NCBI GenBank assembly: GCA_964016885.1
Contig: OZ024740.1
Location: forward strand, 161,386,001 to 161,450,000
Length of the DNA: 64,000 nt
Direction: 5' to 3'
Source: Eledone cirrhosa
Lineage: Eukaryota
Shown here: positions 1,140 to 58,969 of the stretch, in pieces
How the letters are laid out: every line of letters starts with the position of its first letter
Numbering within the stretch: position 1 is the first letter of the stretch
The notes under the pieces: generated by a model
The model's database searches: none
What the model was told of the DNA's origin: nothing
Seen by the model: the letters and a program-made list of their open reading frames with translations, nothing else
Position numbers and translations under genes: made by a program

Positions 1140-1464
1140 CATATATATATGCGAGACAAACCACAAATCCTTCAGGAATTTTGGTAAAGTTCATATGCAC
1201 TTTTTCTTCTAACTTATATTTTAGACTTAGATCCATTTAATTGATTATTTATCTAGTTAATTTCTACGGGCTAAAAGGAGTGACTAGATAAATTTTATCT
1301 GACTGTTCCTCGCGGAAAATAGTCTGTATCATTTGTCTGTTATTTCTTCATAGTTACATTTTAAACTTATAGCCTCGTTTAAATGATTATTTATCTGGTT
1401 GATTTCTACGAACTAGGGTGAGGAAAGGCTGGGTATATGTTAACTAATAATTCTTCAAACTTGC

Positions 1465-1543
<79 letters not shown>

Positions 1544-1748
1544 TATAAGTATGTATACGTACATACATATATGTATACAGACGTACAGTAGTATGTATAT
1601 ATATATATACATATATGCACACATATATATGTACGTATCGATTCACCGAACATTTATTATAATGTTCGGTGTGTTTGTAAACAAACATCCCGAATTAAGC
1701 CGTACAGTGTCTAGCAACCATCGTTGCTCATTTGTTCAACACTGACAA

Positions 1749-1797
1749 AGGAACGCTGTACTAGTTTCAAGCTATCGTCAGCAACGTATACCTTCCT
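1749..1797 (-). ncRNA. Type I hammerhead ribozyme, stem II partly deleted (family A)
   Basis: Minus strand reads ACGTTG-CTGACGA-TAGCTT-GAAAC-TA-GTA-CAGCGT. Confidence 0.6.
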
Positions 1798-2440
1798 GCC
1801 AGATGATTGAACGTCTGAAAGTATATACTTTCCTTATGCATATTAACGGCTGAGCAGCCTAATTTACATATCGAGTGAGTTAATCGGCCGGGCACACCGA
1901 AAACGATAAACTGAAAAAATGAAACGAAATTTCATTTCTCACTCTTAGTACGGCTGTTACTTAAATATAAGTATGTATACGTATATACATATATGTATAC
2001 AGACGTACAGTAATATGTATATGTATATATATACATACATGCACACATATATATATGTACGTATGGATTCACCGAACATTTATTATAATGCTCGGTGTGT
2101 TTTTAAACAAACATCCCGAATTAAGCCTGGCCGATTAACTCACTCGATATGCAAATTAGCCTGCTCAGCCGTTAATATGCATAAGGAAAGTATATACTTT
2201 CAGACGTTCAATCATCTGGCAGGAAGGTATGCGTTTATTATAATGCTCGGTGTGTTTGTAAACAAACATCCCGAATTAAGACGTACAGTGTCTAGCAACC
2301 ATCGTTGCTCATTTGTTCAACACTGACAAAGGAACGCTGTACTAGTTTCAAGCTTATTAGCTATCGTTAATATGCATATCGTTAATATGCATAAGGAAAG
2401 GATATACTTTCAGACGTTCAATCATCTGGCAGGAAGGTAT

Positions 2441-2483
2441 ACGTTGCTGACGATAGCTAATAAGCTTGAAACTAGTACAGCGT
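2441..2483 (+). ncRNA. Minimal type I hammerhead ribozyme (family A)
   Basis: ACGTTG-CTGACGA-T.AGCT.AATA.AGCT.T-GAAAC-TA-GTA|CAGCGT. Stem I ACGTTG/CAGCGT, stem II AGCT/AGCT, palindromic stem III ACTAGT, GUA triplet. Confidence 0.85.
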
Positions 2484-2748
2484 TCCTTTTTCAGTGTTGA
2501 ACAAATGAGCAAAGATGGTTGCTAGACACTACGGCTTAATACGGGATGTTTGTTTACAAACACACCGAGCATTATAATAAATGTTCGGTGAATTCATACG
2601 TATATATATATATGTGTGTGTGCATGTATGTATATATATATACATACTACTGTACGTATGTATACATATATGTATGTACGTATACATACTTATATTTAAG
2701 TAACAGCCGTACTAAGAGTGAGAAATGAAATTTCGTTTCATTTTTTCC

Positions 2749-2807
<59 letters not shown>

Positions 2808-3095
2808 GAGAGAGAGAGTTCTCCAGCCTCCTTCTCAACAAGGAAGATGAAAAAACTTACATCTTAATTTTAAATCTTTAAGTTTTAGTTTTTAATTCTT
2901 ATTAATTCTTTTTAATTGTAATACTCAATATTTGATAAGATAAGATAACCGGTGATGCTTTATATACATTATAAAACTCTTTTTTAAAATAATTGTCCCT
3001 CTCATTTTTTCAATAATGTCACTTTGACGAATCAAAGAAAGGAAAAAAAAGGAAAATAGACCCTAAAATATATTTTCCGAGCTATTTCCAACTTC

Positions 3096-3988: not shown

Positions 3989-4180
3989 GCCGGTGGATTG
4001 GCAGTATCGGTAGAGGGTTGGACGCCATGCTTTCTAGCATAGAGTTACGTCCCTTTATGGTCTGAGTTCAAATCTCGCCGAGGTTGACTTTGCCTTTCAT
4101 CCTTACGGGGTCGATAAAATAAAGTACCAGTAATGCACTGGGATAATTGCTGGCCTTGTGCCAAATATAGAAACAGTTAT
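3989..4180 (+). mobile_element. tRNA-derived SINE (cephalopod-type)
   Basis: A-box-like TGGCAGTATCGG, B-box GAGTTCAAATC, conserved body GACTTTGCCTTTCATCC...GGGGTCGATAAAATAAAGTACCAG. Multiple copies in the window. Confidence 0.85.
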
Positions 4181-4200
4181 GATTGATAGATAGATTTCTT

Positions 4201-4391
4201 TATTTGTTTTTATTTTTGGCACAAGGCCAGCAACTACCCCAGTACATTACTGGTACTTTATTTTATCGATCCCGTAAGGATGAAAGGCAAAGTTAACCTC
4301 GGTGGGATTTGAACTCAGAACGTAAAGGGCCATTACTCTATGCTGCAAAGTATGGTGTCTAACGCTCTAACGATACTGCCAATCCACCGCC
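4201..4391 (-). mobile_element. tRNA-derived SINE, same family, inverted
   Basis: Reverse complement of 3989-4180 with scattered substitutions. Confidence 0.85.
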
Positions 4392-11271: not shown

Positions 11272-11343
<72 letters not shown>

Positions 11344-11396
11344 GAGATTCTACAGGACTAGACCTGTTTCATTCTTTAGAAATCATCAGGAATCTC
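11344..11396 (-). ncRNA. Type I hammerhead ribozyme (intact core)
   Basis: Minus strand reads GAGATTC-CTGATGA-TTTCTAAAGAAT-GAAACAGG-TCTAGT-CCTGTA|GAATCTC. Stem I 7 bp, stem III ACAGG/CCTGT. A mutated mirror copy lies on + at 11397-11448. Confidence 0.85.
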
Positions 11397-11530
11397 AGAT
11401 TCCTTATGATTTCTAAAGAATGAAACAGTTCTAGTCCTATAGAATCTCTTCTATATTAAAACTTTTATACTCTGCTATGTATTGAGTACCTTACTTACTG
11501 TGGTTACCTCCGATTCAACCCTGAATAAAG

Positions 11531-11597
<67 letters not shown>

Positions 11598-11684
11598 TAA
11601 TAATAATAAATTTGAAGACTAAAATCCAAAGAGGGCTCGATAAGGATAAATCTATATCAAATATATAAGAACCGTAGAGCAAAT

Positions 11685-11921
<237 letters not shown>

Positions 11922-11950: not shown

Positions 11951-15560
<3,610 letters not shown>

Positions 15561-27922: not shown

Positions 27923-28832
27923 CATTTCACAGAACTTATGTTCATCGATTTCAGGCACTTGACTCCTTCTTCCTCCCATTTGACCTGTGCGAAATTCTTT
28001 CCTTACTCACATTTCGACCAGGTTTGATGGTCTTTATTCTCTCTCGTCCACGATTTCACAGAACTTATGTTCATCGATTTCAGGGACTTGACTCCTTCTT
28101 CCTCACTTTTCGTTGCATTACCATCTTTGTTTGTTTACTGTCTCGCTCGTTCCCCCGATTTACGTGTCCCAACGACTTTCTTTAGCCGTTGCTCGCACCC
28201 ACCAGAGGTATATGGTCTTTAAAGCAATGAAATACCAATGAAGGTTGGAAGATCACTGATGATGGACTAAATTTATTCATATGTAACCCATTTTCAACCA
28301 CGCAGTATGTCATGTTTTCATATTTTTCATATATATTTTCCTCCGATGTGACTCGTCTGTTTCTTTTCTTACTGCTTCCCCTTTTCTCTGTATCTCTCAC
28401 TTCCTTTTACCCCCTCTACCAGTTACTCTCTCTGTTAGCCTCATCCTCACACTTTCACTCACTCACTCTCTGCTAATCCCTCTCCTACGTCCTCCCGTTT
28501 GACCTGTGCGAGATTCTTTCCTCACTCACACTTCGACCAGGTCGGATGGTCTTTATTCTCTCTCGTCTACGATTTCACAGAACTTATGTTCATCGATTTC
28601 GGGGACTTGACTCCTTCTTCCTCCCGTTTGACCTGTGCGAAATTCTTTCCTTACTCACATTTCGACCAGGTTTGATGGTCTTTATACTCTCTCGTCCACG
28701 AATTCACAGAACTTATGTTCATCGATTTCAGGGACTTCTTCCTCACTTTTCGTTGCATTACCATCGATTTCAGGGACTTGACTCCTTCTTCCTCCCGTTT
28801 GACCTGTGCGAAATTCTTTCCTCACTCACACC
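27923..28832. repeat. ~129-bp tandem repeat in two blocks (27923-28125, 28490-28832)
   Basis: TTCACAGAACTTATGTTCATCGATTTC recurs near 27925, 28054, 28573 and 28703. Confidence 0.85.
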
Positions 28833-28845
28833 TCGTTTTCATATT

Positions 28846-28892
<47 letters not shown>

Positions 28893-28894
<2 letters not shown>

Positions 28895-29735
28895 TAAAAA
28901 TTAGCGAGAATCGAATTTCAGCCCATGAATTAGCGAGAAACACTTTCGAGTTGTGAGGCAAGCGCTCTATAATTCAAATTAATTAGAGCTTACAACTTAC
29001 GTTAAAGGCCAAACACACTGAGATGGTGGTTAAACTAATAATCCACACAGCGAAGATTCGATCTACTATTTCGGGTCAAACAGATATACAGATATAAAAA
29101 TATATGAAAATATAAATGTTTGAGACTCACCCGGACCCCTGGAATGATGGTAAAGTCCAGTGTTGGGGTTTCTGCGGCTCCATAAGTCATTTACTGTCCA
29201 CTTACATAAAGGATGTTAAGTTTCTTGTATCCTGACTGAACTAGGAGTACGCGTTGTCAACAGGATTCAGTTCGAAAGTCTACATAGATGTGTCTGTAAC
29301 TGACCCCACGTGGGGTTCAGCAAGGGAGGCAACACCCATATTAGGCGATTGAATTCTTTTGTGTATAATATTGCGAAAATGCAAAATATCACAAATCGAA
29401 TGAAGCTCTCGACAGAGTGGTTAAATATAACAAAGCTATTCGGCAGTCAATAGAGTAGACCAAAACCAGTCAATAAAATTAACTGGCCAATAGCTAGACT
29501 CTGGAGATTAATACAAATAAAAATTAGCGAGAATCGAATTTCAGCCCATGAATTAACGAGAAACACTTTCGAGTTGTGAGGCAAGCGCTCTATAATTCAA
29601 ATGAATTAGAGCTTACAACTTACATTAAAGGCCAAACACACTGAGATGGTGGTTAAACTAATCATCCACACAGCGAAGATTCGATCTCCTATTTCGGGTC
29701 AAACAGATATACAGATATAAAAATATATGAAAATA
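28893..29735. mobile_element. Non-coding element with ~217-bp terminal direct repeats (period ~622), between (TA)n
   Basis: 28897-29115 is almost identical to 29519-29735. Diverged inverted relative at 23920-24105. Confidence 0.75.
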
Positions 29736-30644
29736 TATATATATATAAGTAGAAGTTGTATTTAATTTGTTGGAAGTCCGACAAACATAAATGTTTATAA
29801 ATGATTTAGAGCACTCAAGACACTGGAGTAAATATTCAATGATATTAAATAAATGGAAACTATATTTATAAATTGCAAATTGTGTGTTGAGGAAATTTTC
29901 TTCATACTTAAATGTAAGAACTCTATTAATGTACGGACGAATTTATTTAGTTCTTGTAGACATCGCCTAAATTCAACGTTTAAAATTATATATAAATTAT
30001 AATTACACTTATAATATTTCTACTTATTTCCATAACAATCTTATCCACTCTTTTTTAATATATTGTTATCTCTAAATCATATCTATAATATTTGCTATAA
30101 TTTCACTTCTTAAAGTTTCTTAAAATATATACATATATGATCCTAATTTTTAATTTTAATTTTAATTTTAATTTTAATTTTAATTTTAATTTTAATATAT
30201 TTTTTAATTCTTTATTTTATTTTTTATTTCTTAATTTTTTCATATATTTTTTTTAATTACTTTTTTTTTTTAATTATAAATTTGTTTTTAAATAAATACA
30301 TTTTTTTTTAAATTATTAAATTCTTATAAATTTTTTTTTTTTTTAATTTAATAAAATGTTTTAACTTCTTTTATAACCACTAACTAATTCAGGCTAAATA
30401 TATCTTTCAACATTTATATCTTTAACATATATACTTATTTTGACAAAATAATCTCATATTAACGAATAAATAAACAAAACTGGAGTTTTTTCCGTATCCT
30501 TCCATTTTAAAATATATAAATATAAATATTCTTATTAACTCAGTTAACTTAATTTAATTTACTTACATTAAATATAAACCAATATCCCTCAGAAAGAGAC
30601 AGAGAGAGAGACATATATGTGTGTGTATATATATATATATATAT

Positions 30645-31296
30645 TGTTATACTTGGGGAGGGTCATATTGTAATATTGCCAGAAATAATAACAGAACACA
30701 CTCACTGTTTGGTTGGTTTTCGCTTCTGTATCTTGATATCTCCATAGTTATTTCATTTGGCAATCAATGTTTATCATTGATTGACCAGCGGTTAAAAATA
30801 CAGATATAAATATATATAGTCTATCAAAGTTCTTTCGTTGCACATCTGCAACATCATCAGTGATACTATTATGTTTCATCCTATTGTATTTTATCGTATG
30901 TCTACGCCATTTTTATTTTATTTTTATTTTTATTTTTATTTATTTATTTCTTCTTGTCTCTGTCTCTGCGCATGCGTTTGTGTGTGTGTATAATGTTTGG
31001 TGTGTGTGTTCGCGTTTGAGTGTATGTGTTTTTGTTTTCGTATTCTATCTTTGTTCATTAGCGTTTATATGTGTTTGTTGTTATTGTACTTGTGTATATA
31101 TTTATTTATGTGTGTGTATATATATACATATATTTATATGTATATATATATATATATATATATTGTTATACTTTGGGAGGGTCATGTTGCCAATAAGAAA
31201 CACACGCACCAGCAACATGACCCTCCCAAAGTATAACAATATCGGTTTCAACACACGATTTCAGATAAAGAATCTTGCTAAACAAATTCAGAAACG

Positions 31297-39758: not shown

Positions 39759-39800
<42 letters not shown>

Positions 39801-39803
<3 letters not shown>

Positions 39804-40845
39804 TATATTATATTTTGAGAATAAACTCTCAGTCGTTTACAATAATTAAGCTCCAAGAAAAGGGGCATTTCCGAGCAGTTAAATACATTAAAATATTAAA
39901 ATATATGATAAACACGAAACGTGTTTGCATTGTAACAGACAAAGTTAGCTATTAATGAAATAAACTAATTAAAGTGAATACAATTTGTCTGCCTCGATAT
40001 AAGTCAATAAAGACAAGCTTATATTGGCAACGGCCATGATTCATGGACAGATTTAAATTTCAAAATCCAAACCTGTTCCGTAGACGAATTTGAACCTCGA
40101 AACCTAAATCCGTTTCGCAACGGTGGTATGTGAATTGAAAAATAAAGAGAATCGAAATGGAATTGAAATAAAAAGTGAAATATCCAAATCTTCTGTGCTT
40201 ATCAACAGGAATCCAGTAAAATTAGTACATCTCACATCAAAAATGTGTCTGTTACAATGCAAACACGTTTCGTGTTTATCATATATTTTAATGTATTTAA
40301 CTGCTCGGAAATGCCCCTTTTCTTGGAGCTTAATTATTGTAAACGACTGAGAGTTTATTCTCAAAATATAATATAGTATATTGCTCCTTAACTGTAGAGC
40401 TGATCTTTAATCCCGCATAAACGGCTGTTATTTCTAGCACCGGGAATGCGTGACGGCTAGTTTGGCCTGGCTACACACGTGTAGTCAGACCTGCAAAATT
40501 TTTGATGTGAGATGTACTAATTTTACTGGATTCCTGTTTATAAGCACAGAAGATTTGGATATTTCACTTTTTATTTCAATTCCATTTCGATTCTCTTTAT
40601 TTTTCAATTCACATACCACCGTTGCGAAACGGATTTAGGTTTCGAGGTTCAAATTCGTCTACGGAACAGGTTTGGATTTTGAAATTTAAATCTGTCCATG
40701 AATCATGGCCGTTGCCAATATAAGCTTGTCTTTATTGACTTATATCGAGACAGACAAATTGTATTCACTTTAATTAGTTTATTTCATTAATAGCTAACTT
40801 TGTCTGTTACAATGCAAACACGTTTCGTGTTTATCATATATTTTA

Positions 40846-40850
<5 letters not shown>
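39801..40850. repeat. Non-coding fold-back element: ~555-bp unit in partial tandem plus inverted copy, between (TA)n
   Basis: TGTCTGTTACAATGCAAACACG at 40246 and 40801. 39801-40244 is the reverse complement of segments of 40246-40850. Confidence 0.85.
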
Positions 40851-40890
<40 letters not shown>

Positions 40891-40899
40891 TATATATAT

Positions 40900-43800
40900 A
40901 CTTGGGGAGGGTCATATTTGTGTAATACTGCCAGAATTAATAACAGAACGCACTCACTGTTTGGTTGGTTTTCGCTTTTCGCTTCTGTGTCTTTTATATC
41001 GGTAATCTAATTTATTCGGTCCTCAATGTTGCCATTGACTGACCAACGGTCAAAAATAATACAGATACAATATAGACACAAACACATATATATAGTTTAT
41101 CAAAGTTATTTCATCTGCAACATCGTCAGTGGTGCTATTGTTTCCTCCCGTTACATTGTATGTCTACGCCATCTTTATTTAGTCTGTTTATATATTTATT
41201 TATTTATTTGTTTGTTTGTTTATTTTATTTTGTCTTCTTTGCGCATGCGTTTGCGTGTGTGTATAGAGTTTTGTTTGATGTGTGTTCGTGATTGGGTGAC
41301 TGTGTATTGGTTAAAGTATTCTATCTTTACTAGTGTGTTTATATGTGTTTGTTGTTATTGTGCTTGTGTATGTATTTATTTATTTATTTATCTATTTATT
41401 CATTTATTTATACTTCTCTTAGGTCAGTGCTGTTTGTTTGGGTGTTGTTATTATTCCATTCATTCTTTCTGTTTAGTCTTGGCCTTCTAAGTTCTATTTC
41501 ACTGGCCTCTCTGATTTGCCTATCTGTTGGGTCTTTTCTATGTTTAGATATTATTCTAATTTCTATGTTGTCTATGTTACCGTCGTGTTCTTGTCTGGCA
41601 TGTTCGTATAGTACTGACCCGTTTTTTCGTCCTTTTAGTCCCCCCCCCCCAGTGTTGGTCTATCCTTTCACCTATGCTACAAGCTGTCTCGCCTATGTAT
41701 GTTGTTGTCATGTTTCTGCAAGTACCCTCTGTACATCTTATGCTATAGACTACGTTTCTAGTTTTACAGTTTATCCGGGGGTTTACCTTACATATGATAC
41801 ATTTCCTATTAGTACAGTGGGTTTTCTTAAAAGGGTAGGTTTTGCTGATCAGGGATTTTATGGTGGTTCCTGGCTTTTCTACCACCTTAACCTTTAAGTG
41901 GGTCTTTCTCAGGGCCTTTCTACGCTGGTTAGCTAATTTCCCTCCAGGGGTAGCGTCCACAAACATGACACTCTGGTATCTCTGGTTGTCGTACCATGAG
42001 GTGGCTTTCCCTATCTTATGTCTAGCCCTATCTAAGCTATTCCATGATTTGCTCCTGTATAATGGGCAAATTCCTTTCATGTCCAGTTCTATGAGGGTCT
42101 TATACTTCTCCATGGCTCCTTCGTATACTCTGACTCTGTCTCTTTGGTTGTAGCCAGAGAACTGCATGTGGTTGATGAAGTGTTGGATGTGTCTTTCCAT
42201 TTCTGTTTGGTCGCACATGCGGGACACATTCTTCATCACTCGTACCAAATTTGCGATCAGAATATTAAACTTAGCACTACTGGACATTGCTGAGTTTTTG
42301 AGTATCAGGTATTTGAGTATCAGGTATTTGGAGGCCATGGGTTTAGCATAGTGTGAGTGGAGAATTTGGGCTCTCTCGTCTATAGTGTTAATCTAGAGTT
42401 CCGTGTCTAATACAGGTAGTCTATTGTTAGGGTGTTTGGAAGGGTAGTCGATAGTTACAGTTATACTTTGGTGTATGGAATTAGCTATCTGCTGGATGCT
42501 TTCCATTGTGCTACGTTCTAAATCAAACTTGTTAGTGCTCTCTAGTGGGGATGTTCTTATAACTATATTGATATCGTCTACATAACGAGAGTACATGATG
42601 AGGTCTATGGAGCTCTCATTAAGGAGATCTTTAAGTCTCCTTTCCCACCATACCATAAAAAGGTTGGCAACATCACCAGCTATGCTGACGCCAATGGCTG
42701 CTCCCTCATTTTGGGTGTAGATCTCGTTGAACTTGAATATCTGGCCCTTTAGGATAGTTTTGATACTAGCCCCTATTGCATGTGCGACCATTTTTCTCAC
42801 CTGATCATTGTTTGGGGGGGTCCGTATAGCTTTGGTCCACCCAATCCACCTTCCCATGGGAGTCTTTTTTGCCATTGAGGTTATGGTGGGGTGTCTACCT
42901 TTTATGGGTCTACTAGGGCAGAAACGTCTAAGGTCATGGTTGTCTAGGTAGTCAGTGTCGTAGGTAAGTCTAAGTAGGAGGCCCAGTTCGTCTGTGTCGA
43001 CGTCGCAGAACTGCACCTCACTCTCAATGTTCATCTCCACACATTTTTCCACAGCAAAATCAATGTTAATGGATGGGTACAGTGATACCACATCCATGCT
43101 GCCTATTATGCAATTGGATAGGTTCCTGTTTTTGTTGCACTCACTGATTCTGAGGAGGTCCTCTGTACTGTCACATACATCTGGGGACATCTTGATTATG
43201 GGGCGTATAACCATTGAGAGGAAGTAGGAGATCCTGTAGTTGCTAGCTATATTAGCTCCGCATACGGGTCTTGTTGGTGGTCCTGTTGTCGGGTCGTCGA
43301 CTGTCTTGTGGTCTTTGCGGAGCCCATACAAGGGTGGTATGCCATTGTTAGACGCCTGGAAGTTGTTGGCAGTGCGTCTGCTTGGCTTTAGGATGTCAGT
43401 CCACATCATCATGTGAGCGTTGAGGATTTTCTCTCTCCCATCATGTGTTTGCTGTGCAATTTCGCTCGTGTTTGTGATGTGGGGTTGCATAGCCTTGATG
43501 TAGTTCGGCATGCTATCTATTGACATCCCTCCAGACTTATCTGTGGGTAGACATACTACCTCACCATCCCTTGTGCGCTGCTTGAGGCTAACCAAGCCTT
43601 CTACAGGTTTCCTCCCAAGTTGTTGGGCCTCTGGTCTGCTCTGTCTCTTAGTATACCGGTCTACTATTTGTCTAATCTTATTTCTAGCTATGGTGAACTG
43701 TGCCTCTGTCTCGTCATCTATTTGTTGTGGTATGCAAACTCTTTTATTAAAGGGCAACCTCGTAGGATAGATATTACCCATCTTATATGTTTTGTCAGCT

Positions 43801-44873
43801 GGGTTGAAAAATAGTTTCTCTAAGGGGTTGTCATTATATCTATCGTCATAGTTGTGTGTGTTGCTATTATTGTTATTATGGTGGTTGTTGTTGTTACTGT
43901 TATTTCTACCATTGTGGTTGTTACTTTTATTATGTTTCTTGTTTTTGTTGTGTCTATCATTAATGTTGCTACATGTATTATTTCCATTATTACCACTGTG
44001 GTTGTTGTTGTTGTTCGTATTGTTACCGTTATTACTACTGTGGTCGCTGCTACTGTGTATGTGGTTAATGTTTCTATTATTATTATTAGTGTGGTTATTG
44101 TTGTTGTTCTGTCTATCGTTAGTATTATTACCATTATTACTATTTCTCACTCTCCTGCTATTGTTATTTTTATGGCTGTTATTTCTATACTCAGAGTTAT
44201 TGTTTATATTAATACTACCATTATTATTGTTGTTGTTGTTGTTGTTTACTTTTTTCCAACGTATTTTTGTGAAACACTTTTCCAGCTCCGTTTTTCACTC
44301 CATAGGGTTAATCTTTTTGTAGATGGCAAATTTTGGTGGTAGCTGCAGGATTTGTTGTTCTTGTTCACTGATTAAAGTGTTCCCATAAATATTTACTGTG
44401 TAGTCATTGGTAAATTCTTCCGGTAATTTTACATCAGTCATACGGATATTGTTGATGTTATCTGGGTATTTTTGAGAATATTCTATTTTCCTTTCTTGTA
44501 GTTTTTTCTTATTCATCCATTCTAATTTCTTATTTAAATGCCTATTGCATTCGTTTCGAGGGTATTTCCTTTCACGTCGGATGACGCTCATGAAGTCATC
44601 CCTTTCGTTTGGTGTGGCGAGATTTCGGACTTCCTTACCGTTAATGCGTTTCTGTCTGTAAAGTTCGTTGACTTTTGTGTATGTTGTTTTTTTCATATTA
44701 ACTGTTATTGTGTGTTTTAGTCGTTCAGCTTCTGTTTTGTTCAATAATAAATTATTTACTTGTTTTGATATGTTTGTTGTGTATATTTTGGAGGAAACAC
44801 AGTGTTTTAAGAAGCAGATTTGTTCTGTTGTTATTGTAGTTTTGTGTAATTACTACCATCATATATATCTATA

Positions 44874-45105: not shown

Positions 45106-45505
45106 GGGTGGGTCATATTTGTGTAATAATATTCCCAGAATTAATAACAGAACACACTCACTGTTTGGTTGGTTTTCGCTTCTGTGTCTTTTATATCGGT
45201 TAATTTAATTTATTCGGTCCTCAATGTTACCATTGACTGACCAACGGTCAAAAATACAGATACAATATAGACACCAACACATATATATAGTCTAACAAAT
45301 AAATAAATAAATAAATAAACAGACTAAATAAAGATGGCGTAGGCATACAATACAACGGGGGGAAACATAATAGCACCACTTACGATGTTGCAGATGTGCA
45401 ACGAAAGAACTTTGTTAGACTATATATATATTTGTTTCGACACACAATATTTGTTTCGGCACACGATTTCATATCAAAAACCTCGCAAAACTAATTCATC
45501 GCCGT
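40900..45505 (-). mobile_element. Long PLE (RT + GIY-YIG) with terminal repeats at both ends
   Basis: ORFs 42393-44150 (LPTDKSG, LYGLRKDHK, SMDVVSLYPSI, GAAIG, YSRYVDDI, LPVLD) and 41577-42338 (NVVYSIRC..YIGET). Repeat 40900-41100 recurs at 45105-45290, with an inverted piece at 45295-45425. Confidence 0.9.
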
Positions 45506-45527
45506 TATATATATATATATATATATA

Positions 45528-47572
45528 CAGTGGGTCCTTGATAAACGGTAGTTCTTTATCCGGTAAATTCACAGATACGGTTTTGGGTAATTACTACCAT
45601 CATTTCTAAATGGTAAAAAAAATTCACAGATATGGTTTTTGGTCCTGTTTTGTTTATATAACGTCCTGTGAATATTGCTGATGCAGATGGAAAGCCAAAC
45701 GCATGAAGAAGAGCCTGACGTTTGAGATAAAGCTGGACATTTTGAAAAGGAAGGAACAGGACAAGGTACGTTCGCCATAAGTCGTAACTTAGGCCTAGCC
45801 CAGTCTACAATCTGTACTGTTTTAAAAAATGGTGAGGCTGTCAAAAAAGCTGGGGAGAATGCTACGAGTCTAGAGAGTAAATTGCTGACGAAACATCGTG
45901 AGCCGATTATGGATAGGATGGAAAGGTTGTTCAAAATTTGGATCGACGACCAAAATTGTCAAAAGATGCTTCTGTCTTTAAATGTAATCAGTGAGAAAGC
46001 ATTGCCCATTATTGACAGGCTGAAGACTGAAATTGGGGTGGAGAACTTTGTATTCAAGGCAAGCAAAGGCTGGTTTGATAAGTTCAAATGACGTTCGAGT
46101 CTTCACAACATAAAAGTTACAGGTGAGGCTGCCAATTCCGACAAAGAGAGTGCTGAAAAATTCAAGGCAGAGTTAGAGAAATGCATTGCAGAGAAGGAGT
46201 ACAGCAAAAAACAGGTTATTAATTATGATGAAACAGGACTTTATTGGAAAAAGATTACCAGTAATACTTATATTGACAAGGAGGAGAAAAGTGCGAAGGA
46301 GTTCAAAGCCTCAAAGGACCGCGTTATTCTGTTACTTGGAGGGAATGCAGAAGGAGATTTAAAGCTAAAGCCACTCATTATCTACCATTCGGAAACTCCA
46401 ATAGCACTCAAGTGGTTACTTAAGCAATACCTACCAGTGATATGGAAGTCTAATAAGAAGGCATGGCTGATCACTTCAATTCACCAGGATTTTTTTACCT
46501 CATATCTGTCACCAACCCTTAAGGAATATGCATTAGCTAACAACATTGCCAACCGTTTTCTGCTATTAGTGGACAACGCCCCCCAGCCGCCCACGGGCAA
46601 TGGAAGACTGGTCAGCAAATATTGAGATTTTGTTTCCCCCCCCCCCCCCAATCACCACAGCTCTCATTCAGCCGATGGATCAAACAGTCATCAAAACATT
46701 TAAGGCATAGTACCAGCAGAGAACCATGCTGCAGCTGATAAAGGGCACAGGTGGGCCTGACAAGCCCACGATCAGGGAATGTTGGAAATTGTACAACATC
46801 AAGGACGGCTTAGACAACATCAAGGCATCTTGGGAAGAAGTGAAGCAGTCTACCATGAACTTGGCCTGGAAGAAATTATGGCCAGCATGTGTGAATGACT
46901 TCCAAGGCTTTGCTGAGGACATTGGTGTGATAAAAAAAAGATATTGTAAATCTCTGGCTTAGAGCTGGCTTCGATGGTGTTAATGATGATGATGTGCAAG
47001 ACCTTTTGGAAAGCCGAGCTGAACCACTCTCCAATTATGAACTCATAGAACTAGACAAGGCGATACATAGAACTAGACAAGGCGAAACAATCTTAGAAAC
47101 CCTGAAAGAGCGTGACCCCAACCCTGCTAGGAGCAGTAAAGTGGCTCAAGACATCGAGAAAAGCGTCAAGATTTTCCAAGAAATGTATGAAGCCAAAAGA
47201 AACACTGCCAAACATTCCTCCATCTACTCTTTCTTCAAGCCAGTCACACAGGCCAACCGTGCTACAGCTGGCCCTTCAACATCCACTGCAGTCAACGAGT
47301 TTGTTGGTTTTGAGCCTCCCACATCACCCTCATCCTCCCCTTCCAACTCAGTCCAAGATGAGCAAGGGCTGAAACCCGTACTGTCATCCGATGGACTACG
47401 CGGCATGTGTAAGGTACAGTAAATTAAAAAAACATTATTTCTTTTCTGTAGGGATGACTTTTTCGATGTGCTGGAATGCATCCCTATCTATTTCTGTTAT
47501 AATGGGTTCTTTATACGGTAATTCGATATAAGGTAAGGATTTCAGGAACGCATATATACCATATATCGAGGT
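45528..47572 (+). mobile_element. Tigger/pogo-family DNA transposon, transposase pseudogene
   Basis: Starts TA|CAGTGGGTCCTTGATA. Contains FKASKGWFDKFK, NYDETGLYWK, KASKDRVILLLGGNAEGD.KLKP, LLLVDNA, LIQPMDQ.VIKTFK, with stops and frameshifts. Confidence 0.9.
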
Positions 47573-47658: not shown

Positions 47659-47662
<4 letters not shown>

Positions 47663-48260
47663 AAATAACGAAACGAAATTAAATTTCGTTTCGTTTGTAA
47701 CTCACTTTTGTATGACTGACGCTTAAACAATTAAGTTAAAAAATTAAGTTAAAAAATGTACATCCACATATGTATACTGAAATACTAGTATGCATATGAA
47801 TACACACACGTGTACATATGTAGATGTACCGAGTTTTTCACTGGACACTTTACTGTGAGTGTCCAGCTATTCTGTATGTAAACACACAGACAAACCGGTT
47901 TTTAGAGTCATACTGGTTTTCGAAGAAACACCTTTCCTCTATTCTCCAGAAAGCCAGACAAGGAATATTGGACTAGTTTCGATGTTGTTACATCTCATCA
48001 GCAATATTTACCTATCTTCCGGCCTTTCTAGAGAATCGTAAAAGCACATATCGTTATATGCTTTTTCTATGAAAATTAGTAGTGGGCAGACTAATTTGCA
48101 TAGAGCGTGAGTACGTACCGGTTCAGCGGAGACGATAAAAACAAATAACGAAACGAAATTAAATTTCGTTTCGTTTGTAACTCACTTTTGTATGACTGAC
48201 GCTTAAACAATTAAGTTAAAAAATGTACATCCACATATGTATACTGAAATACTAGTATGC

Positions 48261-48262
<2 letters not shown>
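47659..48262 (-). mobile_element. Non-coding HHR mini-element (family B, ~480 bp period) between (TA)n
   Basis: Direct repeats ~47659-47797 and ~48138-48262. Motifs parallel family A (GAAACGAAATT..TTTCGTTTC, CTAATTTGCATA, ACGATAAA). Confidence 0.8.
47964..48008 (-). ncRNA. Minimal type I hammerhead ribozyme, fully paired (family B)
   Basis: Minus strand reads AATATTG-CTGATGA-GATGT.AACA.ACATC-GAAAC-TA-GTC|CAATATT. Confidence 0.9.
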
Positions 48263-48719: not shown

Positions 48720-51700
48720 GAAAACAGGGAGAAAGAGACGATTATTAGGAAGAAAAATATTTTTTTTCCTTTTTCATTTCTCTCTCTCTTTTTTCTGGGT
48801 TAGAAAATGATTAAAACGAAATGTTTTACTTTATGTGAAGTGTTAAGGTATTAGTTGATTTATTTATTAATTAACAATAGCATTTAATTATCTATTTGTA
48901 TATTTAATAATTATCTATTACAGGTTTCAGCATTTTTATGCATTATCAAATGATAGTGGTATGTATTGGTGTAGAATGGTGGTATTGCACATGTTAAAGA
49001 AATGGTGCAGAAAGAATAATGTTATTTACAAACAAGGTTTATGAAATGAAAAGAAAAAAGAAAAAAGAAAAAAAGAGGCGTAAAGTAGAGCATAAAAAGT
49101 CAATGTGAAAGAAAAAATAATGTAATTTACAGGCATAGTTCTTGAAGTTAAGCAGATCAAAATGTGTTAATATAGCAAGGGTGCTTAGTTTATCCATGAT
49201 TCCATGATGGAGGCAAATGGTGGACTGTCGTTTGATATGATTTCCCTTTTTAGAGAGTTAATATGCAGGGGGAGGCAATTCATGCTGGATGATATTTAAT
49301 TTATTTAAGAAGAAGGATTAGGTGAGGGAGGTAATTCTTGTAAATGTTTGATTGTTTGTTCCAATTTTAGTTTGGTCCGAAGTTTAGTGAATTAAGTAGA
49401 GGTTGGAATTTGTTAATGAAATATGTTTCCTATTGGTACGATGGATGAAAGTAGCGTTGTCTATGAATTTGTAAATGGGGAACATTTTAAAGTTTGGATG
49501 TTGGTTGTGTGTACAATTAGCGATATGTTCACTAAATGCAATCTTTCTGTATTCCTGTATTTTAATTTGTGATTTATGGACGGTCATACGTTGACGGCGG
49601 CTGTTTTTTGTCTGTCCTATGTAGTACTGTGACAACCTGAGCAGGTCAAAACATAGATTAGGTTTTCGGATGCACATGTAAAGTTGTGTTTAACTGTGAA
49701 ATGTTGTCCTTGTTTAAAATGGAATGTTGAACCTTCTATTAGATTTATGCATATGCCACAGTTGGGCCTTCCGCATTTTGTTACTGTAGGGTTCATTGTG
49801 AGGGTTTGTTGGATTTTGGCTTGTGTGAGGATGTTTTTTAGGGATTTAGGTTGTCTTTTGATCTTTATGATGTTTTGTGTTTGGAGGATTTTGTTCATTC
49901 TTGGGTCTCTTTTTAGTAAAGGAATGTTCTGGAGGATGGTGTCGAATGCCTCATTGTTGAGGGGGTTGTGTGTGGAGATGTATGGTAGAGTTTTTGTTGC
50001 GGTTCATTCCTGGGTTTGGGGTGTCTGAGTTCCTGGATGTCGAGTTTTAGGGCACGTTGGAATCCATTGTTGATTAGGGATGGTAGGTAGTTTCTGCTGA
50101 TAAGTGTATTTTTTAATTCTTCTAGTCGTGTGTAGCATGTGTATTTATCTGAAACTATTGTGCAGATCCTTCTGGCTAGGTTATAAGGAATTGCCATTTT
50201 GGTGTATCTAGGGTGGCACGAGTTGAATGGGAGGTATTGTTTGGAGTATATGTCTGTTTCTATGTTGTTGTTTGTTTTCTTGATGATGATGTCGAGGAAA
50301 GGGAGTTGTTCATGGCTGTAATTCATTGTGAATTGTAAGTTTGTGTTGAGTCCATTCAGAAGGGTTTTAAACTCAAACAGTCTATTTATACTTTCATGCC
50401 AGAGGATGAAGCAGTCGTCCAAATATCTCTTCCAGTTCTTTTCTATGTGTTGGTAGAAGTGGTTGCCGTATTTGTCTAGAACTTTGCGGTAGAGAGTGGT
50501 TTCCAAATATCCCATGACAAAGTTGGCGTATGAGGGGGCTTCTTTCGTACCCATGGCGGGCCCAGATTTCTGTCTGTAGTATTTGGCATTGAATTCGAAG
50601 TAATTGTTTTCCAAGGTGAATTTGAGTCCCTCCAACACAAATTCTTTAGGGGTGCGCTGTGGGAGTTCACTAGGGAAATTTTCAAGCCAGAATTGTATTA
50701 CCTCTATAGCTAGGTTATGTGGGATATTGGAATATAAATTGATGACATCAAAGGTTACTAGTAGGGTATATTCATCATTGAGTGTTGTTGGGAGGTGGTT
50801 GAGCATGTCAAGGTTGTCCCTTATGAAGCTTTTTATGTGTTTTAGGAAAGGTTTAAGCAGAATATCTAGGAAGTTGCTTAGGCGGTGGGTTACACATGTG
50901 GTGCCTGCTATTATGGGTCTTAATTTAAGGTCATCAGGAGGGGCTATATTGATGTAAACGTCTGTGGCTTGCTTGCAGGCCCAACCTATTACTTCGCTTT
51001 TGTGTGTCTTTGGGATACCGTAGAAGAGGCTGGTTCTGCTTTTGAAATTGGTGATGTAGTTGTATTCCTTGTCTGTAAGGCCTTCTTTGTAAAGGATTGT
51101 TAGGGATTTTAGGTTTCTCATTATTTTCTGTTGTGTGTAATGTTGGGCCTTTCATAATATGTTTGGTTTTCTAGAGTTGAGAGTACTAGAGTCGTGTAAT
51201 AATCTGTCTCCATAAGGACTACTTCACTCCCTTTATCTGCCTCTTTGATTGTTAGGGTTTTGCCGTTTTTTAGACTGTTAAGACCATTCCATTCTTTTTT
51301 GCTTAGGTTTGTTTTTTGTTTATGTCTGTGTAGGTGGTGGTATGGGTAATTAGTAATGTGTTCGCAGAATTGATCGAGGAATTTGTCCTTGCCTTTTGGT
51401 GGGGTGTAGTTGCTTCTATTTCTGGCTATTGAGTCATCCTCATTGTATTTGTCGTATAGTTGCTCGCTGAGTCTTAGTTTTCTACAGAATTCTGCAATAT
51501 CTTCCTTCATTTCGGGGTAGTTTGGTTGTTGGGGAGTTGGTGTAAATTTTAGACCTTTGGAGAGTATGTTGATTTGGTCTGTTGTTAATTCTTTAGAGGT
51601 TAAATTAACAATTTTTATTGCATTTTGTGACTCCTGTGTGTTTTGTGTTATCTTGTTATCCTGTGTCTGTGTGCTGTGTCTAAAAAATGATTACGGAAGT

Positions 51701-53304
51701 TGTGATGGCTGTTGAAGTTTGGATGTCTCTTATAGTTGTATTGGCCCCTGCTGCTGTTGTTAGATGGTGTGTAGCTGTGGTGGTTGTTGAGTTTAGGTTG
51801 TATCGTGTGGTTGTATTGAGCCCTGCTGATGTTGTAGGGTGTGTAGATTTGATGGACGTGGTTATAGGGTGTGAAGTTATGGTGGTTGTTGAAGTTGGGT
51901 TGTATCGTATCGTTGTACTGAGCACTGCTGTTGTTGTAGGGTGTGTAGACTTGGTGGTAGTTGTAGTAGGGTTGTCTTGTGTGGTTATATTGAGTCATGC
52001 TGTTGCTGTTATATGGTGTGTAGCTATGGTGGCTGTAGTGGTTAGGGTGTCTCGTGTGGTTGTATTGTCCCCTACTGGTGTTGTTGTAGTAGGGTGTGGT
52101 TAGTGGGGGAGGGTAGATTAGGGTTTCCTTATAGCTGGTGTGTGGTTGTGAGGCCCCGTGTGACATGTGTGGTAGTTGTGTATTTTGGTTTCTACGTTGG
52201 AAGTAATGATGGTTGTGGGTTTGTTGTGTAGGGATGTTAGGGGGGTTGTAAGTGTGGGGGGTTCTATGGTTTCTCCTGGTGGAAGAGAAGTTGTAGTGTC
52301 TATCTTGTAGCTGATGTTTCTCTATTACTATATTTGTTGCTTGGGTCCGTGTGGTAGTTGTGTGGAGGATGTAGGAGGTAGGGGCGAGGTGATGCCTACT
52401 TTTTTTGGTATTTGGGGAGGTATTGTTTTTTTTTTGTTGTTGTTGGTTGTTGTATGGTGTTTGGGTGTTGATTGAGTTTTCTTGTTATTATGGTTTTAAT
52501 GAAGGGGTTCTTGGATGTGTGTTCTTTTTGGAAAAGTGTTTCATAGTTAGAGAACCAGGTTTCGTTTATTTCCCAACGTTGAAGGGATTTTAATTATTCC
52601 TTATTACAGTCCTCTAACCATAATTTTGAAATATTTTCTAGGGTGGTGTCTTTGGTTTTATTGATAATTGCTTGATTAATCTCATCGTCGATTGATTTGA
52701 TCCTATCTTCATTTGCTTGGGCTCTCAATTTAAGGAGTTCAATTTCGGTTTTTATGTTATCAAGTGCCATTCTTTCCCTGAGGCGTCTTTGAGTCTCGGG
52801 TTCGTTTGGGATGGATTTAATTTGTAGTTTGCGGGGGATGATTAATGGGGATGAGTTAATCCATTTTTCATAGATCTCCGCTTTGTTATTGTTTTGTATC
52901 ATCTTTCAAAATGAGAATTTCCTGTTTTTAAAAGATGTGTACCAGTGTGGTATTAATTGGTTTTTTATTTGGTAAGTTGTAAGTGTATTAGTGTCATGTG
53001 TATTTTCGTTCGTTTGAATAGGGTTTGTGTTGTTATTCAGGTGTGTTTTTATTGTTTCACATAAGTTGTTGATATTGTCGTTGATTTCATAGGATGTGTA
53101 TTTGGGAATTGTTTCTGCACTTGTAGAGTTTAGTTTGTTGGTGAGTATTGACAAATTAGAGTTAATTTTTTGTAGTTCTTGGAGTATCTCTTGATTGGTG
53201 CTAATGAGAGTGGAATCTGTTTTTGTTTTAGTATGCATTTTCTGTATCTCGTGTGGGAGTGAATAATAATAATAATAAAATGCGGGGAGGAAGCACACGA
53301 GTTA

Positions 53305-53307
<3 letters not shown>
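48720..53307 (-). mobile_element. Near full-length PLE (long N-terminus, RT, GIY-YIG), frameshifted
   Basis: ORFs 52906-53298, 52594-52902, 51121-51510 (KEADKGSEVV), 49913-51121 (FYGIPKTHK, LRPII, WKRYLDD), 49617-49898 and 49384-49677 (NLIYVLTC..YYIGQT). Confidence 0.92.
48912..48955 (-). ncRNA. Hammerhead motif, U3-A8 core variant, in PLE 3' terminal region
   Basis: Minus strand reads TATCAT-TTGATAA-T.GCAT.AAAA.ATGC.T-GAAAC-CT-GTA|ATAGATA. Homologous motif at 12235-12276. Confidence 0.6.
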
Positions 53308-53369
<62 letters not shown>

Positions 53370-53652
53370 TTAGAAACACACAGATACATGCGGACACACA
53401 CATATATACAGGAGTGCATCCGCACCCAACTGTGAGTTAAGGGTGCCAACTTCACCGATGTTGCTCAATGAATGACTGGGACAGACCAATTCAGTTGAAC
53501 TAGACTGAACCAGTATCAGAGTTAAAAATACATTATGAAGAGAGAAGAAACATTTAGATATAATTAGTAATAAAATGTATCATACCTAAACTGCTCCTAA
53601 ATTCCTCGACTACTATATATATATATGAAAACAGGGAGAAAGAGACGATTAT

Positions 53653-54371
53653 TAGTACATCGTTCCTTTGTCAGTGTTGAACAAAAGGGCAACGATGGTT
53701 GCTAAACACTGTACGGCTTAATTCGGGATGTTTGTTTACAAACAAACCGAGCATTAAATAAATGTTCGGTAAATCCATACGTGCATACATATTTATGTGT
53801 GCATGTATGTATATATATATATATATATATATACATACTACTGTACGTCTGTATACATATATGTATGTACGTATACATACTTATATTTAAGTAACAGCCG
53901 TACTAAGAGTGAGAAATGAAATTTCGTTTCATTTTTTCCATTTATCGTTTTCGGTGCGCCCGGCCGATTAACTCACTCGATATGCAAATTAGGCTGCTCA
54001 GCCGTTAATATGCATAAGGAAAGTATATACTTTCAGACGTTCAATCATCTGGCAGGAAGGTATACGGTGCTGACGATAGCTAATAAGCTTGAAACTAGTA
54101 CATCGTTCCTTTGTCAGTGTTGAACAAAAGGGCAATGATGGTTGCTAAACACTGTACGGCTTAATTCGGGATGTTTGTTTACAAACAAACCGAGCATTAT
54201 AATAAATGTTCGGTAAATCCATACGTACATATATATATGTGTGTGCATGTCTGTATATATATATATATACATACTACTGTATACATATATGTATGTACGT
54301 ATAAATACTTATATTTAAGTAACAACCGTAGTAAGAGTGAGAAATGAAATTTCGTTTCTTTTTTTCCATTC
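53653..54371 (+). mobile_element. HHR mini-element family A, ~1.6 tandem units (443-nt monomer)
   Basis: TAGTA|CATCGTTCC at 53653 and 54096. Ends in (TA)n. Confidence 0.88.
54064..54106 (+). ncRNA. Minimal type I hammerhead ribozyme (family A)
   Basis: ACGGTG-CTGACGA-TAGCTAATAAGCTT-GAAAC-TA-GTA|CATCGT. Confidence 0.88.
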
Positions 54372-54616
54372 ATATATATATATATATATATATATACATA
54401 GAATATTTCCGTATCGTGAGAGAGTAAAGGTTTAAAGGGATAGGAGATACATATAGTTAATTGCCAAAAGCTGGTGCATTTGTGCTCACTACTTGTGCCT
54501 ACAGGGTTACATATCGGAGGCGTTAATATTTAGTGGGCGAGAATATAAGCAGAGCGGGTTACAAATGAAAGGAATACAAAGGAGAATACATGCTGTTAGA
54601 ACATGTCTATACAAAA

Positions 54617-54658: not shown

Positions 54659-55018
54659 TACAATTCTAGAGACTGTTCAGTACAGAACCCAGAAGGGGTT
54701 TTAAAGTGATAGTTACATTAAAGTTCATTTTTGATTCATTTGTTGTTATTGTCACCGATCAAGGGGAGTAACTCTGGCCGGTGTTTGAATAAACGTCCCC
54801 AAATGGCTTATATATATATACATATATATATACATATATATGTATATATACAAATATAACGAAGGAGTTGTGGTACGGAACCAAATGGACCATAACGCAC
54901 CAGAGTACTCAATACTTAGTGTAGTAGAGTGGGTAATAGGAGAAAGTATGACCCCGACGTCCAGAAATAGCCGTCGAAACGGCTTGAGCTCTGCCGTCGA
55001 GGTCATACTTTCTCCTAT

Positions 55019-58469: not shown

Positions 58470-58486
58470 TTATATATATTTATATA

Positions 58487-58865
58487 TACAATATTAAATA
58501 AATGGAAACTATATTTATAAAACCATATCTATTTCATTATATATATTTCGGGGATATCATATTAACAATATGCTATGCCTTCCTCAGACAAAATACAATA
58601 TAAACAGTTTTATATATAAATATATTCGACATACCTTAATAACACCGACTTGCATTTGGAGAGGTTAAAACAGGCAGTCTGTTTTAACCTCTCCAAATGC
58701 AAGTCGGTGTTATTAAGGTATGTCGAATATATTTATATATAAAACTGTTTATATTGTATTTTGTCTGAGGAAGGCATAGCATATTGTTAATATGATATCC
58801 CCGAAATATATATAATGAAATAGATATGGTTTTATAAATATAGTTTCCATTTATTTAATATTGTA
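58487..58865. repeat. Palindrome with 187-bp arms (no mismatch seen by eye) and 5-nt spacer; each arm holds an HHR motif
   Basis: Arms 58487-58673 and 58679-58865. Plus-strand HHR 58759-58820: TTTTGT-CTGAGGA-long stem II-GAAA-TATATA-TA|ATGAAA. Mirror copy at 58532-58593. Confidence 0.9.
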
Positions 58866-58969
58866 AATATACTCCAAATATTTGTCGAGTGCTTTTATAT
58901 CAGTTATAAATATTTACTAGTTGTAACCCAACAATTGTAAATATAACTTTCCATGTATTTATATATATA

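What the first reader, a model, noticed from the sequence alone, without database searches (positions are those of the whole stretch)
1545..2751. Family A locus built from four direction-switching segments around the hammerhead
Seen: about 1.4 units in one orientation (1545-2127), an inverted piece (2128-2230), a return to the first orientation (2234-2366) and a final inverted piece (to 2751), all inside (TA)n. The three HHR copies are intact (2441), stem II-deleted (1749) and broken in the core (2330-2366). The unit carries many hairpins (CACCGAACAT-TTATTATA-ATGTTCGGTG, GAAAGTATATACTTTC). Inference: reading across the monomer junction fits reverse transcription of a circular or multimeric RNA with repeated template switching.
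Basis: partly seen in the sequence, partly recalled or inferred. Interest (0 to 1): 0.8.

Follow-up and report, generated by a model that had tools for sequence, protein, structure and literature searches.

The report
Scrambled ribozyme mini-retrotransposon insertion
This is a real but largely expected tangle: a copy of a small, protein-less jumping element that carries a self-cutting RNA, pasted into a TA repeat as four pieces facing alternate ways, a more complicated version of an arrangement already known for Penelope-type retrotransposons.

Summary
The four-segment structure is real in the sequence. The unit is a ~443-nt, ORF-less, very high-copy element with a type I hammerhead (covariation across two related families), a fixed 3' end 288 nt after the cut site, and (TA)n targets: a non-autonomous Penelope-like element (non-LTR retrozyme). 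Partial tandems, head-to-head inversions and microsatellite targeting are published PLE traits, and several other inverted insertions lie in this window. The locus is more tangled than those (three strand switches, 2-3-nt microhomologies, a 15-nt slip). The left segment cannot be copied from the other three, so both target strands were probably primed separately; one RT switching in series does not suffice. Read-through of the ribozyme junction fits a circle or a linear multimer equally; no copy here exceeds 1.7 units. The segments differ by 2.8%, against an assembly fold-back, but no read was shown to bridge the junctions. Best new lead: the second copy (53.6 kb) starts at the hammerhead cut and is capped by an inverted 29-nt piece identical to the 3' end of a neighbouring RT/GIY-YIG PLE, a possible footprint of the mobilising element. 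New member of a known kind; interest 0.35.

The parts
1470..1547 (.). left (TA)n target; its last 5 bases (ATATA, 1543-1547) also match the element at unit 225-229
1543..2127 (-). S1: 1.39 units antisense (unit 58->443->229), ends 59 nt inside the family's usual 3' end
1753..1787 (-). hammerhead copy with an 8-nt deletion in stem II (private to S1)
2125..2235 (+). S2: unit 301-411, wholly contained in S1; 3-nt overlap GCC with S1, 2-nt overlap TT with S3
2234..2367 (-). S3: unit 416->443->105, wholly contained in S4; begins inside the hammerhead core; 3-nt overlap CGT with S4
2363..2392 (+). 15-nt tandem slip spanning the S3/S4 joint
2380..2754 (+). S4: unit 346->443->288, ends at the family's fixed 3' end
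2441..2483 (+). intact type I hammerhead: 6-bp stem I, U.U plus 3-bp stem II, 2-bp palindromic stem III, predicted cut after 2477
2752..2803 (.). right (TA)n target
53653..54373 (+). locus 2 of the same family: simple 1.66-unit partial tandem from the hammerhead cut (-5 to -2) to unit 288, then (TA)n
53627..53655 (-). inverted 29-nt piece capping locus 2, identical to 48748-48720, the 3' end of the neighbouring PLE; 3-nt overlap with family A
48720..53307 (-). decayed RT + GIY-YIG Penelope-like element (CX4CXXC before the nuclease), decayed hammerhead near 48915-48955, ends in (TA)n; candidate partner family
47660..48262 (-). family B: related 480-nt ORF-less unit, partial tandem, intact hammerhead at 48001, ends in (TA)n

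Best explanation
The locus is one retrotransposition event of a non-autonomous Penelope-like element (pLTR-only unit, non-LTR retrozyme). An RNA holding more than one contiguous unit is bound in trans by the RT/GIY-YIG protein of an autonomous PLE (inferred). Both strands of a (TA)n tract are nicked and primed (inferred): the bottom strand at the family's fixed internal start (unit 288) gave S4; the top strand at an internal A+T microhomology (unit 229) gave S1. The two cDNA 3' ends then switched template over 2-3-nt microhomologies, most simply each folding back on its own cDNA (S2 on S1, S3 on S4), and the two extensions were joined at TT, with one 15-nt slip. Shown: geometry, overlaps, fixed 3' end, (TA)n targets, conserved hammerhead, that S1 cannot come from S2-S4. 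Inferred: enzymes, order of steps, which template S2 and S3 were copied from, and whether the RNA was circular.
For: Segment map and overlaps. S2 lies within S1 and S3 within S4. Same 3' end plus (TA)n in locus 2 and in public contigs: two listed loose-end groups of 41 and 30 contigs of run X1 run into (TA)n at that point (1220 further loose ends not shown). Very high copy: 13,656 contigs of X1 and about 28,000-31,000 reads of each RAD run were laid (includes flank repeats). Hammerhead: 34 of 36 cells paired, 5 of 12 pairs with changes on both sides, 1 of 500 shuffles as high (3 sequences). At 7 unit positions all locus-1 pieces share one allele and both locus-2 copies another; 12 substitutions inside locus 1 are each private, so the pieces stem from one template type. 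Of 22 distinct joints listed, 7 are inversions in unit terms, 5 of them in both RAD runs. RT and GIY-YIG PLE remnants lie in the window. Published: PLEs form partial tandems with inverted 5' copies and prefer microsatellites (PMC8557442); a purified PLE protein cuts and extends both strands, starts internally on the RNA and prefers AT-rich DNA (PMC11167929); head-to-head palindromes read as self-priming (PMC3846280); animal retrozymes are PLE derivatives (bioRxiv 2026.07.22.740005).
Against: No listed read or contig bridges the three joints (table 8 shows 16 of 13,768 pieces). No shared allele ties S2 to S1 or S3 to S4 beyond S1's private deletion. S2 ends at unit 411 and S3 begins at 416, an adjacency that the double fold-back does not predict. 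Similarity between family A and the neighbouring PLE is weak: 3' ends 18 of 500 shuffles as high, hammerheads 103 of 500. No target duplication can be read in (TA)n. 8 of the 12 private changes are transversions, unlike the transition-rich family reads. Rfam finds no hammerhead. Cleavage and expression untested.
Confidence: 0.62

Rival explanations
1. One reading: a circular monomer RNA is reverse transcribed by rolling circle, and serial template switching by one RT builds the whole locus.
For: Seamless read-through of the cut site in 4 of 4 pieces that cross it; locus 2 matches 5 nt upstream of the first cut; repeats within each locus share alleles; monomer folds strongly as a circle (z -13); retrozyme circles are shown in coral, mussel and axolotl (PMC7229834) and proposed as PLE templates (PMC4209133).
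Against: S1 needs unit 289-300, absent from S2-S4, so it needs separate priming. None of the 3 loci of families A and B in the window exceeds 1.7 units. Locus 2 and 2 of 7 listed inversion joints stop within 5 nt of the cut, which suits a template with an end or a stall there. 1 of 10 control stretches folds as strongly (z -12.4). The circle part alone remains open (about even odds against a linear multimer).
Confidence: 0.17
2. A simpler PLE insertion (direct tandem plus one inverted copy) was later rearranged in DNA: S3 was inverted in place by replication-fork template switching among the many hairpins.
For: S2 end (411) and S3 start (416) are nearly adjacent in the unit; short microhomologies and a 15-nt slip are typical of such repair (general knowledge).
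Against: Needs a simultaneous 240-nt loss (unit 106-345) or a pre-existing joint at the other breakpoint; all four pieces are equally diverged (1.9-3.7% pairwise), which does not show a later step but cannot date one.
Confidence: 0.13
3. Assembly or library artefact (fold-back chimera, collapsed repeats).
For: No bridging read listed; such structures are known to trouble assemblies (PMC8557442); excess transversions among private changes.
Against: Pieces differ at 24 of 857 pairwise sites (2.8%), as do the two copies in the simple locus 2 (5 of 170, 2.9%); all pieces carry the same locus-specific alleles; S1's deletion is not in S3 or S4. Inversion joints of the family occur in raw reads of two samples.
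Confidence: 0.08

Closest known systems
Non-LTR retrozymes of animals (coral, mussel, axolotl, Xenopus; PMC7229834; bioRxiv 10.64898/2026.07.22.740005)
   Same: ORF-less unit of a few hundred nt (443), GC 36%, type I hammerhead with short palindromic helix III; U.U at the base of helix II as in axolotl HHR_Amex2; very high copy.
   Different: Copies seen here are 1.4-1.7-unit partial tandems with a fixed internal 3' end and inversions, not dimer-to-multimer arrays; neither locus has two complete hammerheads in tandem, so neither meets the preprint's 'active retrozyme' rule; circles not tested.
EN+ Penelope-like elements (Penelope/Poseidon, Neptune, Nematis; PMC8557442, PMC3846280, PMC11167929)
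   Same: Hammerhead upstream of an internal fixed 3' end, partial tandem, head-to-head inverted 5' copy, short tail at one end, (TA)n target, microhomology joints.
   Different: No ORF; three strand switches instead of the usual one; the inverted arm ends at an internal A+T site; the tail on locus 2 comes from another family.
Non-autonomous Chlamys elements such as MRC1 (PMC8557442, passage)
   Same: ORF-less PLE derivatives forming pLTRs and tandem insertions.
   Different: Algal, described as lacking canonical hammerheads, and similar to their autonomous partner at the 3' end; here that similarity is marginal.
LINE-1 twin priming (recalled, not from a call)
   Same: Both target strands prime cDNA, giving a 5' inversion with microhomology at the flank.
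   Different: In L1 the two arms copy separate parts of one RNA; here they overlap, which needs two RNAs or a multimer.

Membership tests
non-LTR retrozyme | type I hammerhead core with stems I-III | tested here: met
   Rfam models did not match
non-LTR retrozyme | short (150-450 bp), low-GC, non-coding unit in head-to-tail repeat | tested here: met
   443 nt, GC 0.36; only low-complexity open frames of 110-125 aa overlap it
non-LTR retrozyme | at least two complete hammerheads in tandem (active copy) | tested here: not met
   each locus has one intact copy; other genomic copies not available
non-LTR retrozyme | self-cleavage and expression as linear and circular RNA | not testable with these tools
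   no RNA holder listed; needs bench work
non-autonomous Penelope-like element | partial tandem (pLTR) with hammerhead and fixed 3' end | tested here: met
non-autonomous Penelope-like element | head-to-head inverted 5' copy or tail; A+T microsatellite target | tested here: met
non-autonomous Penelope-like element | homology to the pLTR of an autonomous RT/GIY-YIG element | tested here: inconclusive
   shared layout (hairpin then ATCGT at the 3' end, similar hammerhead) but 18/500 and 103/500 shuffles as high for A; 4/500 for B; only one PLE end was compared
non-autonomous Penelope-like element | target-site duplication | tested here: inconclusive
   unreadable inside (TA)n
autonomous Penelope-like element | RT + GIY-YIG ORF inside the unit | tested here: not met
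   unit closes on itself after 443 nt

The most novel reading that the evidence does not exclude
The PLE protein primes the two target strands from two different RNAs. At locus 1 both were family A; at locus 2 one strand copied family A down to the hammerhead cut and the other copied only the 29-nt tail of an autonomous Neptune-type PLE. Such chimeric ends would be direct genomic footprints that name the PLE family driving a retrozyme and show how PLE inversions and tails arise. The plain alternative is that the 29 nt were copied from the DNA copy 4.9 kb away during repair.
Probability: 0.25. Interest if true: 0.62.

Novelty: new member of a known kind. Interest (0 to 1): 0.35.

Why it matters
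How PLEs make tandem/inverted insertions and tails is stated to be unsolved (PMC8557442), and the PLE-retrozyme partnership rests on co-occurrence and pLTR similarity. A family with thousands of copies, a fixed start and readable joints is a good natural data set to test two-ended priming, circle versus multimer, and the driver's identity. The single locus itself changes no model.

Tried and rejected
No genome held for the window, so no genome-wide junction census. Family motifs found 0 loci in metagenome contigs and viral contigs. Earlier scan notes: nothing. No RNA holder listed; not used as evidence. The sharp read ends table 6 all lie at AATT and are taken as library cut sites. 5 of 7 listed inversion joints have one arm starting at unit 275-311, near the fixed 3' end, but RAD reads start at AATT sites next to it, so this is not counted as support. 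miRNA matches at E<=10 are below gathering score and reflect palindromes and TA repeats. The locus at 39798-40855 first looked like a second multi-switch case; alignment showed one inversion plus a direct partial tandem. The family B fold used a wrong register that included flank; one search replaces it (z -9.2). Single-strand folds of the isolated family A hammerhead are no better than shuffles (z 0 to -1.2), and stem I is weak in the circular monomer (pair probabilities 0.1-0.4), as expected of ribozymes reported to work as dimers. MITE or foldback DNA transposon rejected: unequal arms, polarity and truncation. Host not identified; 'octopus' in my paper searches was a guess from recalled repeat motifs and comes from no call.

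Full report
Observation. The stretch 1543-2754 is built from four pieces of one repeat unit between two (TA)n runs. A second, simpler copy at 53653-54373 supplies a clean monomer of 443 nt (53658-54100; position 1 is the base after the predicted hammerhead cut). In these coordinates S1 (1543-2127, minus) covers 58->443->229, S2 (2125-2235, plus) 301-411, S3 (2234-2367, minus) 416->443->105 and S4 (2380-2754, plus) 346->443->288. The joints carry overlaps of ATATA (left flank), GCC, TT and CGT, with a 15-nt tandem slip at 2363-2392.

The ribozyme. At 2441-2483 lies a type I hammerhead: 6-bp stem I, core, a U.U pair plus 3-bp stem II, and a 2-bp palindromic stem III. Rfam did not match it. A descriptor scan gave 10 hits in the window against 1 hit in 30 shuffled windows. 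A related family B (47660-48262, 480-nt unit, alignable along the unit) keeps the same fold: across the three intact copies 34 of 36 cells pair and 5 of 12 pairs change on both sides, with 1 of 500 shuffles as high and slid controls at 14-47% paired (only three related sequences). This architecture matches the dimer-type metazoan hammerheads described in PMC4209133 (passages) and PMC7229834 (passages and Discussion). Cleavage was not tested, and the isolated family A motif does not fold better than shuffles.

The family. Both family A loci end at unit 288 and run into (TA)n. Laying four public runs on 1150-3050 placed 13,656 contigs from X1, 9 from X4 and about 28,000-31,000 reads from each of two RAD runs; two listed groups of X1 contigs (41 and 30) leave the element at that same point into (TA)n. 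Of 22 distinct joints listed (142 rows not shown), 7 are inversions in unit terms and 5 of these appear in both RAD runs, which belong to one study. So the family is very abundant, has a fixed 3' end, and forms inversions elsewhere. The window itself holds at least eight other local inverted structures, several between (TA)n runs, and three decayed RT-bearing elements of Penelope type, one with a weak Pfam GIY-YIG match and two with a CX4CXXC motif before the nuclease region, the motif given for Neptune/Nematis in PMC8557442.

Is it real? No listed piece bridges the joints (one search shows 16 of 13,768 pieces), so this is unproven. Against an artefact: outside the microsatellite the locus-1 pieces differ at 24 of 857 pairwise sites (2.8%), like the two copies in locus 2 (5 of 170), while the loci differ at 74 of 1390 (5.3%); at 7 positions all locus-1 pieces share one allele and both locus-2 copies another; the 12 substitutions and 2 deletions within locus 1 are each private. 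A caution: 8 of those 12 are transversions, whereas family reads are transition-rich.

Mechanism. S4 is an ordinary first-strand product from the fixed start. S1 needs unit 289-300, which S2-S4 lack, so it cannot be copied from them; it reads naturally as a cDNA primed by the other target strand at an internal A+T match 59 nt upstream of the usual start. S2 lies wholly inside S1 and S3 wholly inside S4, so the simplest path is that each cDNA end folded back over 3 nt and the two extensions met at TT. This is inference: no shared allele proves those parentages, and the near adjacency of S2's end (411) and S3's start (416) is better predicted by re-entry on the RNA or by a later in-place inversion. 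The model agrees with PMC11167929 (main text): a purified PLE protein cuts AT-rich DNA, extends both strands, starts internally on the RNA and is predicted to be a dimer. That paper also found hammerhead cleavage dispensable in vitro.

Circle or multimer. The cut site is crossed seamlessly in S1, S3, S4 and locus 2, so the template was longer than one cut monomer. A ligated circle and an uncut linear multimer both give this. All pieces in the window fit within one span from a cut site to the next unit's 288 (1.66 units), and locus 2 fills that span to within 5 nt. The monomer folds strongly (z -8 to -13), but so does 1 of 10 control stretches. The question stays open.

A lead outside the finding. 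Locus 2 is capped on the left by 29 nt (53655-53627, minus) identical to 48748-48720, the last bases of the neighbouring RT/GIY-YIG element before its (TA)n; with the TA bases 36 nt match exactly. The piece is inverted relative to family A and shares 3 nt with it at the hammerhead cut. That PLE has a decayed hammerhead about 200 nt upstream of its end and, like A and B, a purine/pyrimidine hairpin followed by ATCGT there, though sequence similarity to A is marginal (18 of 500 shuffles). It may be a tail copied from the driver's RNA, or a repair patch copied from DNA 4.9 kb away; identity with a decayed copy mildly favours the second.

Known versus new. Complex tandem/inverted insertions, tails and microsatellite bias are described for PLEs (PMC8557442, passages), self-priming and template jumps were proposed from head-to-head palindromes (PMC3846280, passages), circle-templated tandem insertion was proposed, and animal retrozymes have been derived from PLE pLTRs (bioRxiv 10.64898/2026.07.22.740005, parts 1-3 of 5). 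PMC6431247 (passages) added nothing. Seven searches showed no account of this family or of a foreign tail on a retrozyme, but the library is partial, no supplement was read and Repbase/Dfam were not available. It works like a PLE-mobilised retrozyme and meets the structural tests; activity, circles and the partner are untested or inconclusive. Verdict: new member of a known kind, with an unusually tangled insertion; interest 0.35.

Noticed in passing
window 53627-53655 and 48720-48748: 29-nt piece capping locus 2 is identical to the 3' end of the neighbouring PLE and inverted relative to family A.
   Followed up: partly
window 47660-48262 (-): Family B: 480-nt relative of family A with canonical hammerhead, same 3'-end hairpin, partial tandem in (TA)n.
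   Followed up: yes
window 39798-40855: Young ORF-less insertion in (TA)n (arms 99% alike): direct partial tandem plus one inverted copy; no hammerhead found by my scan.
   Followed up: partly
window 58481-58871, 11336-11456, 11683-11829, 3991-4389, 54936-55018: Near-perfect palindromic insertions with almost no spacer; the first has a hammerhead-like motif in each arm, the second in one.
   Followed up: no
window 41577-44849 (-) with 40897-41170 and 45106-45429: Decayed RT element with an asparagine-rich (AAY)n stretch and hammerhead-like terminal repeat; a separate copy of that repeat at 45.1 kb is partly inverted, another lies at 30648-30908.
   Followed up: no
window 12770-15554 and 49400-53307 (-): Two decayed RT + GIY-YIG elements, 75% alike over 2.2 kb, both with CX4CXXC, with unrelated downstream sequence.
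   Followed up: partly
window 27349 (+), 23600 (+), 21274 (-), 48366 (-): Further hammerhead-like cores or remnants, some near (TA)n runs.
   Followed up: no
window 45726-46625 (+): Tc5/pogo-type transposase remnants (HTH_Tnp_Tc5, DDE_1).
   Followed up: no
unit 28-60: A major subfamily in the RAD runs (over 3,000 reads each) has a different sequence just after the hammerhead.
   Followed up: no
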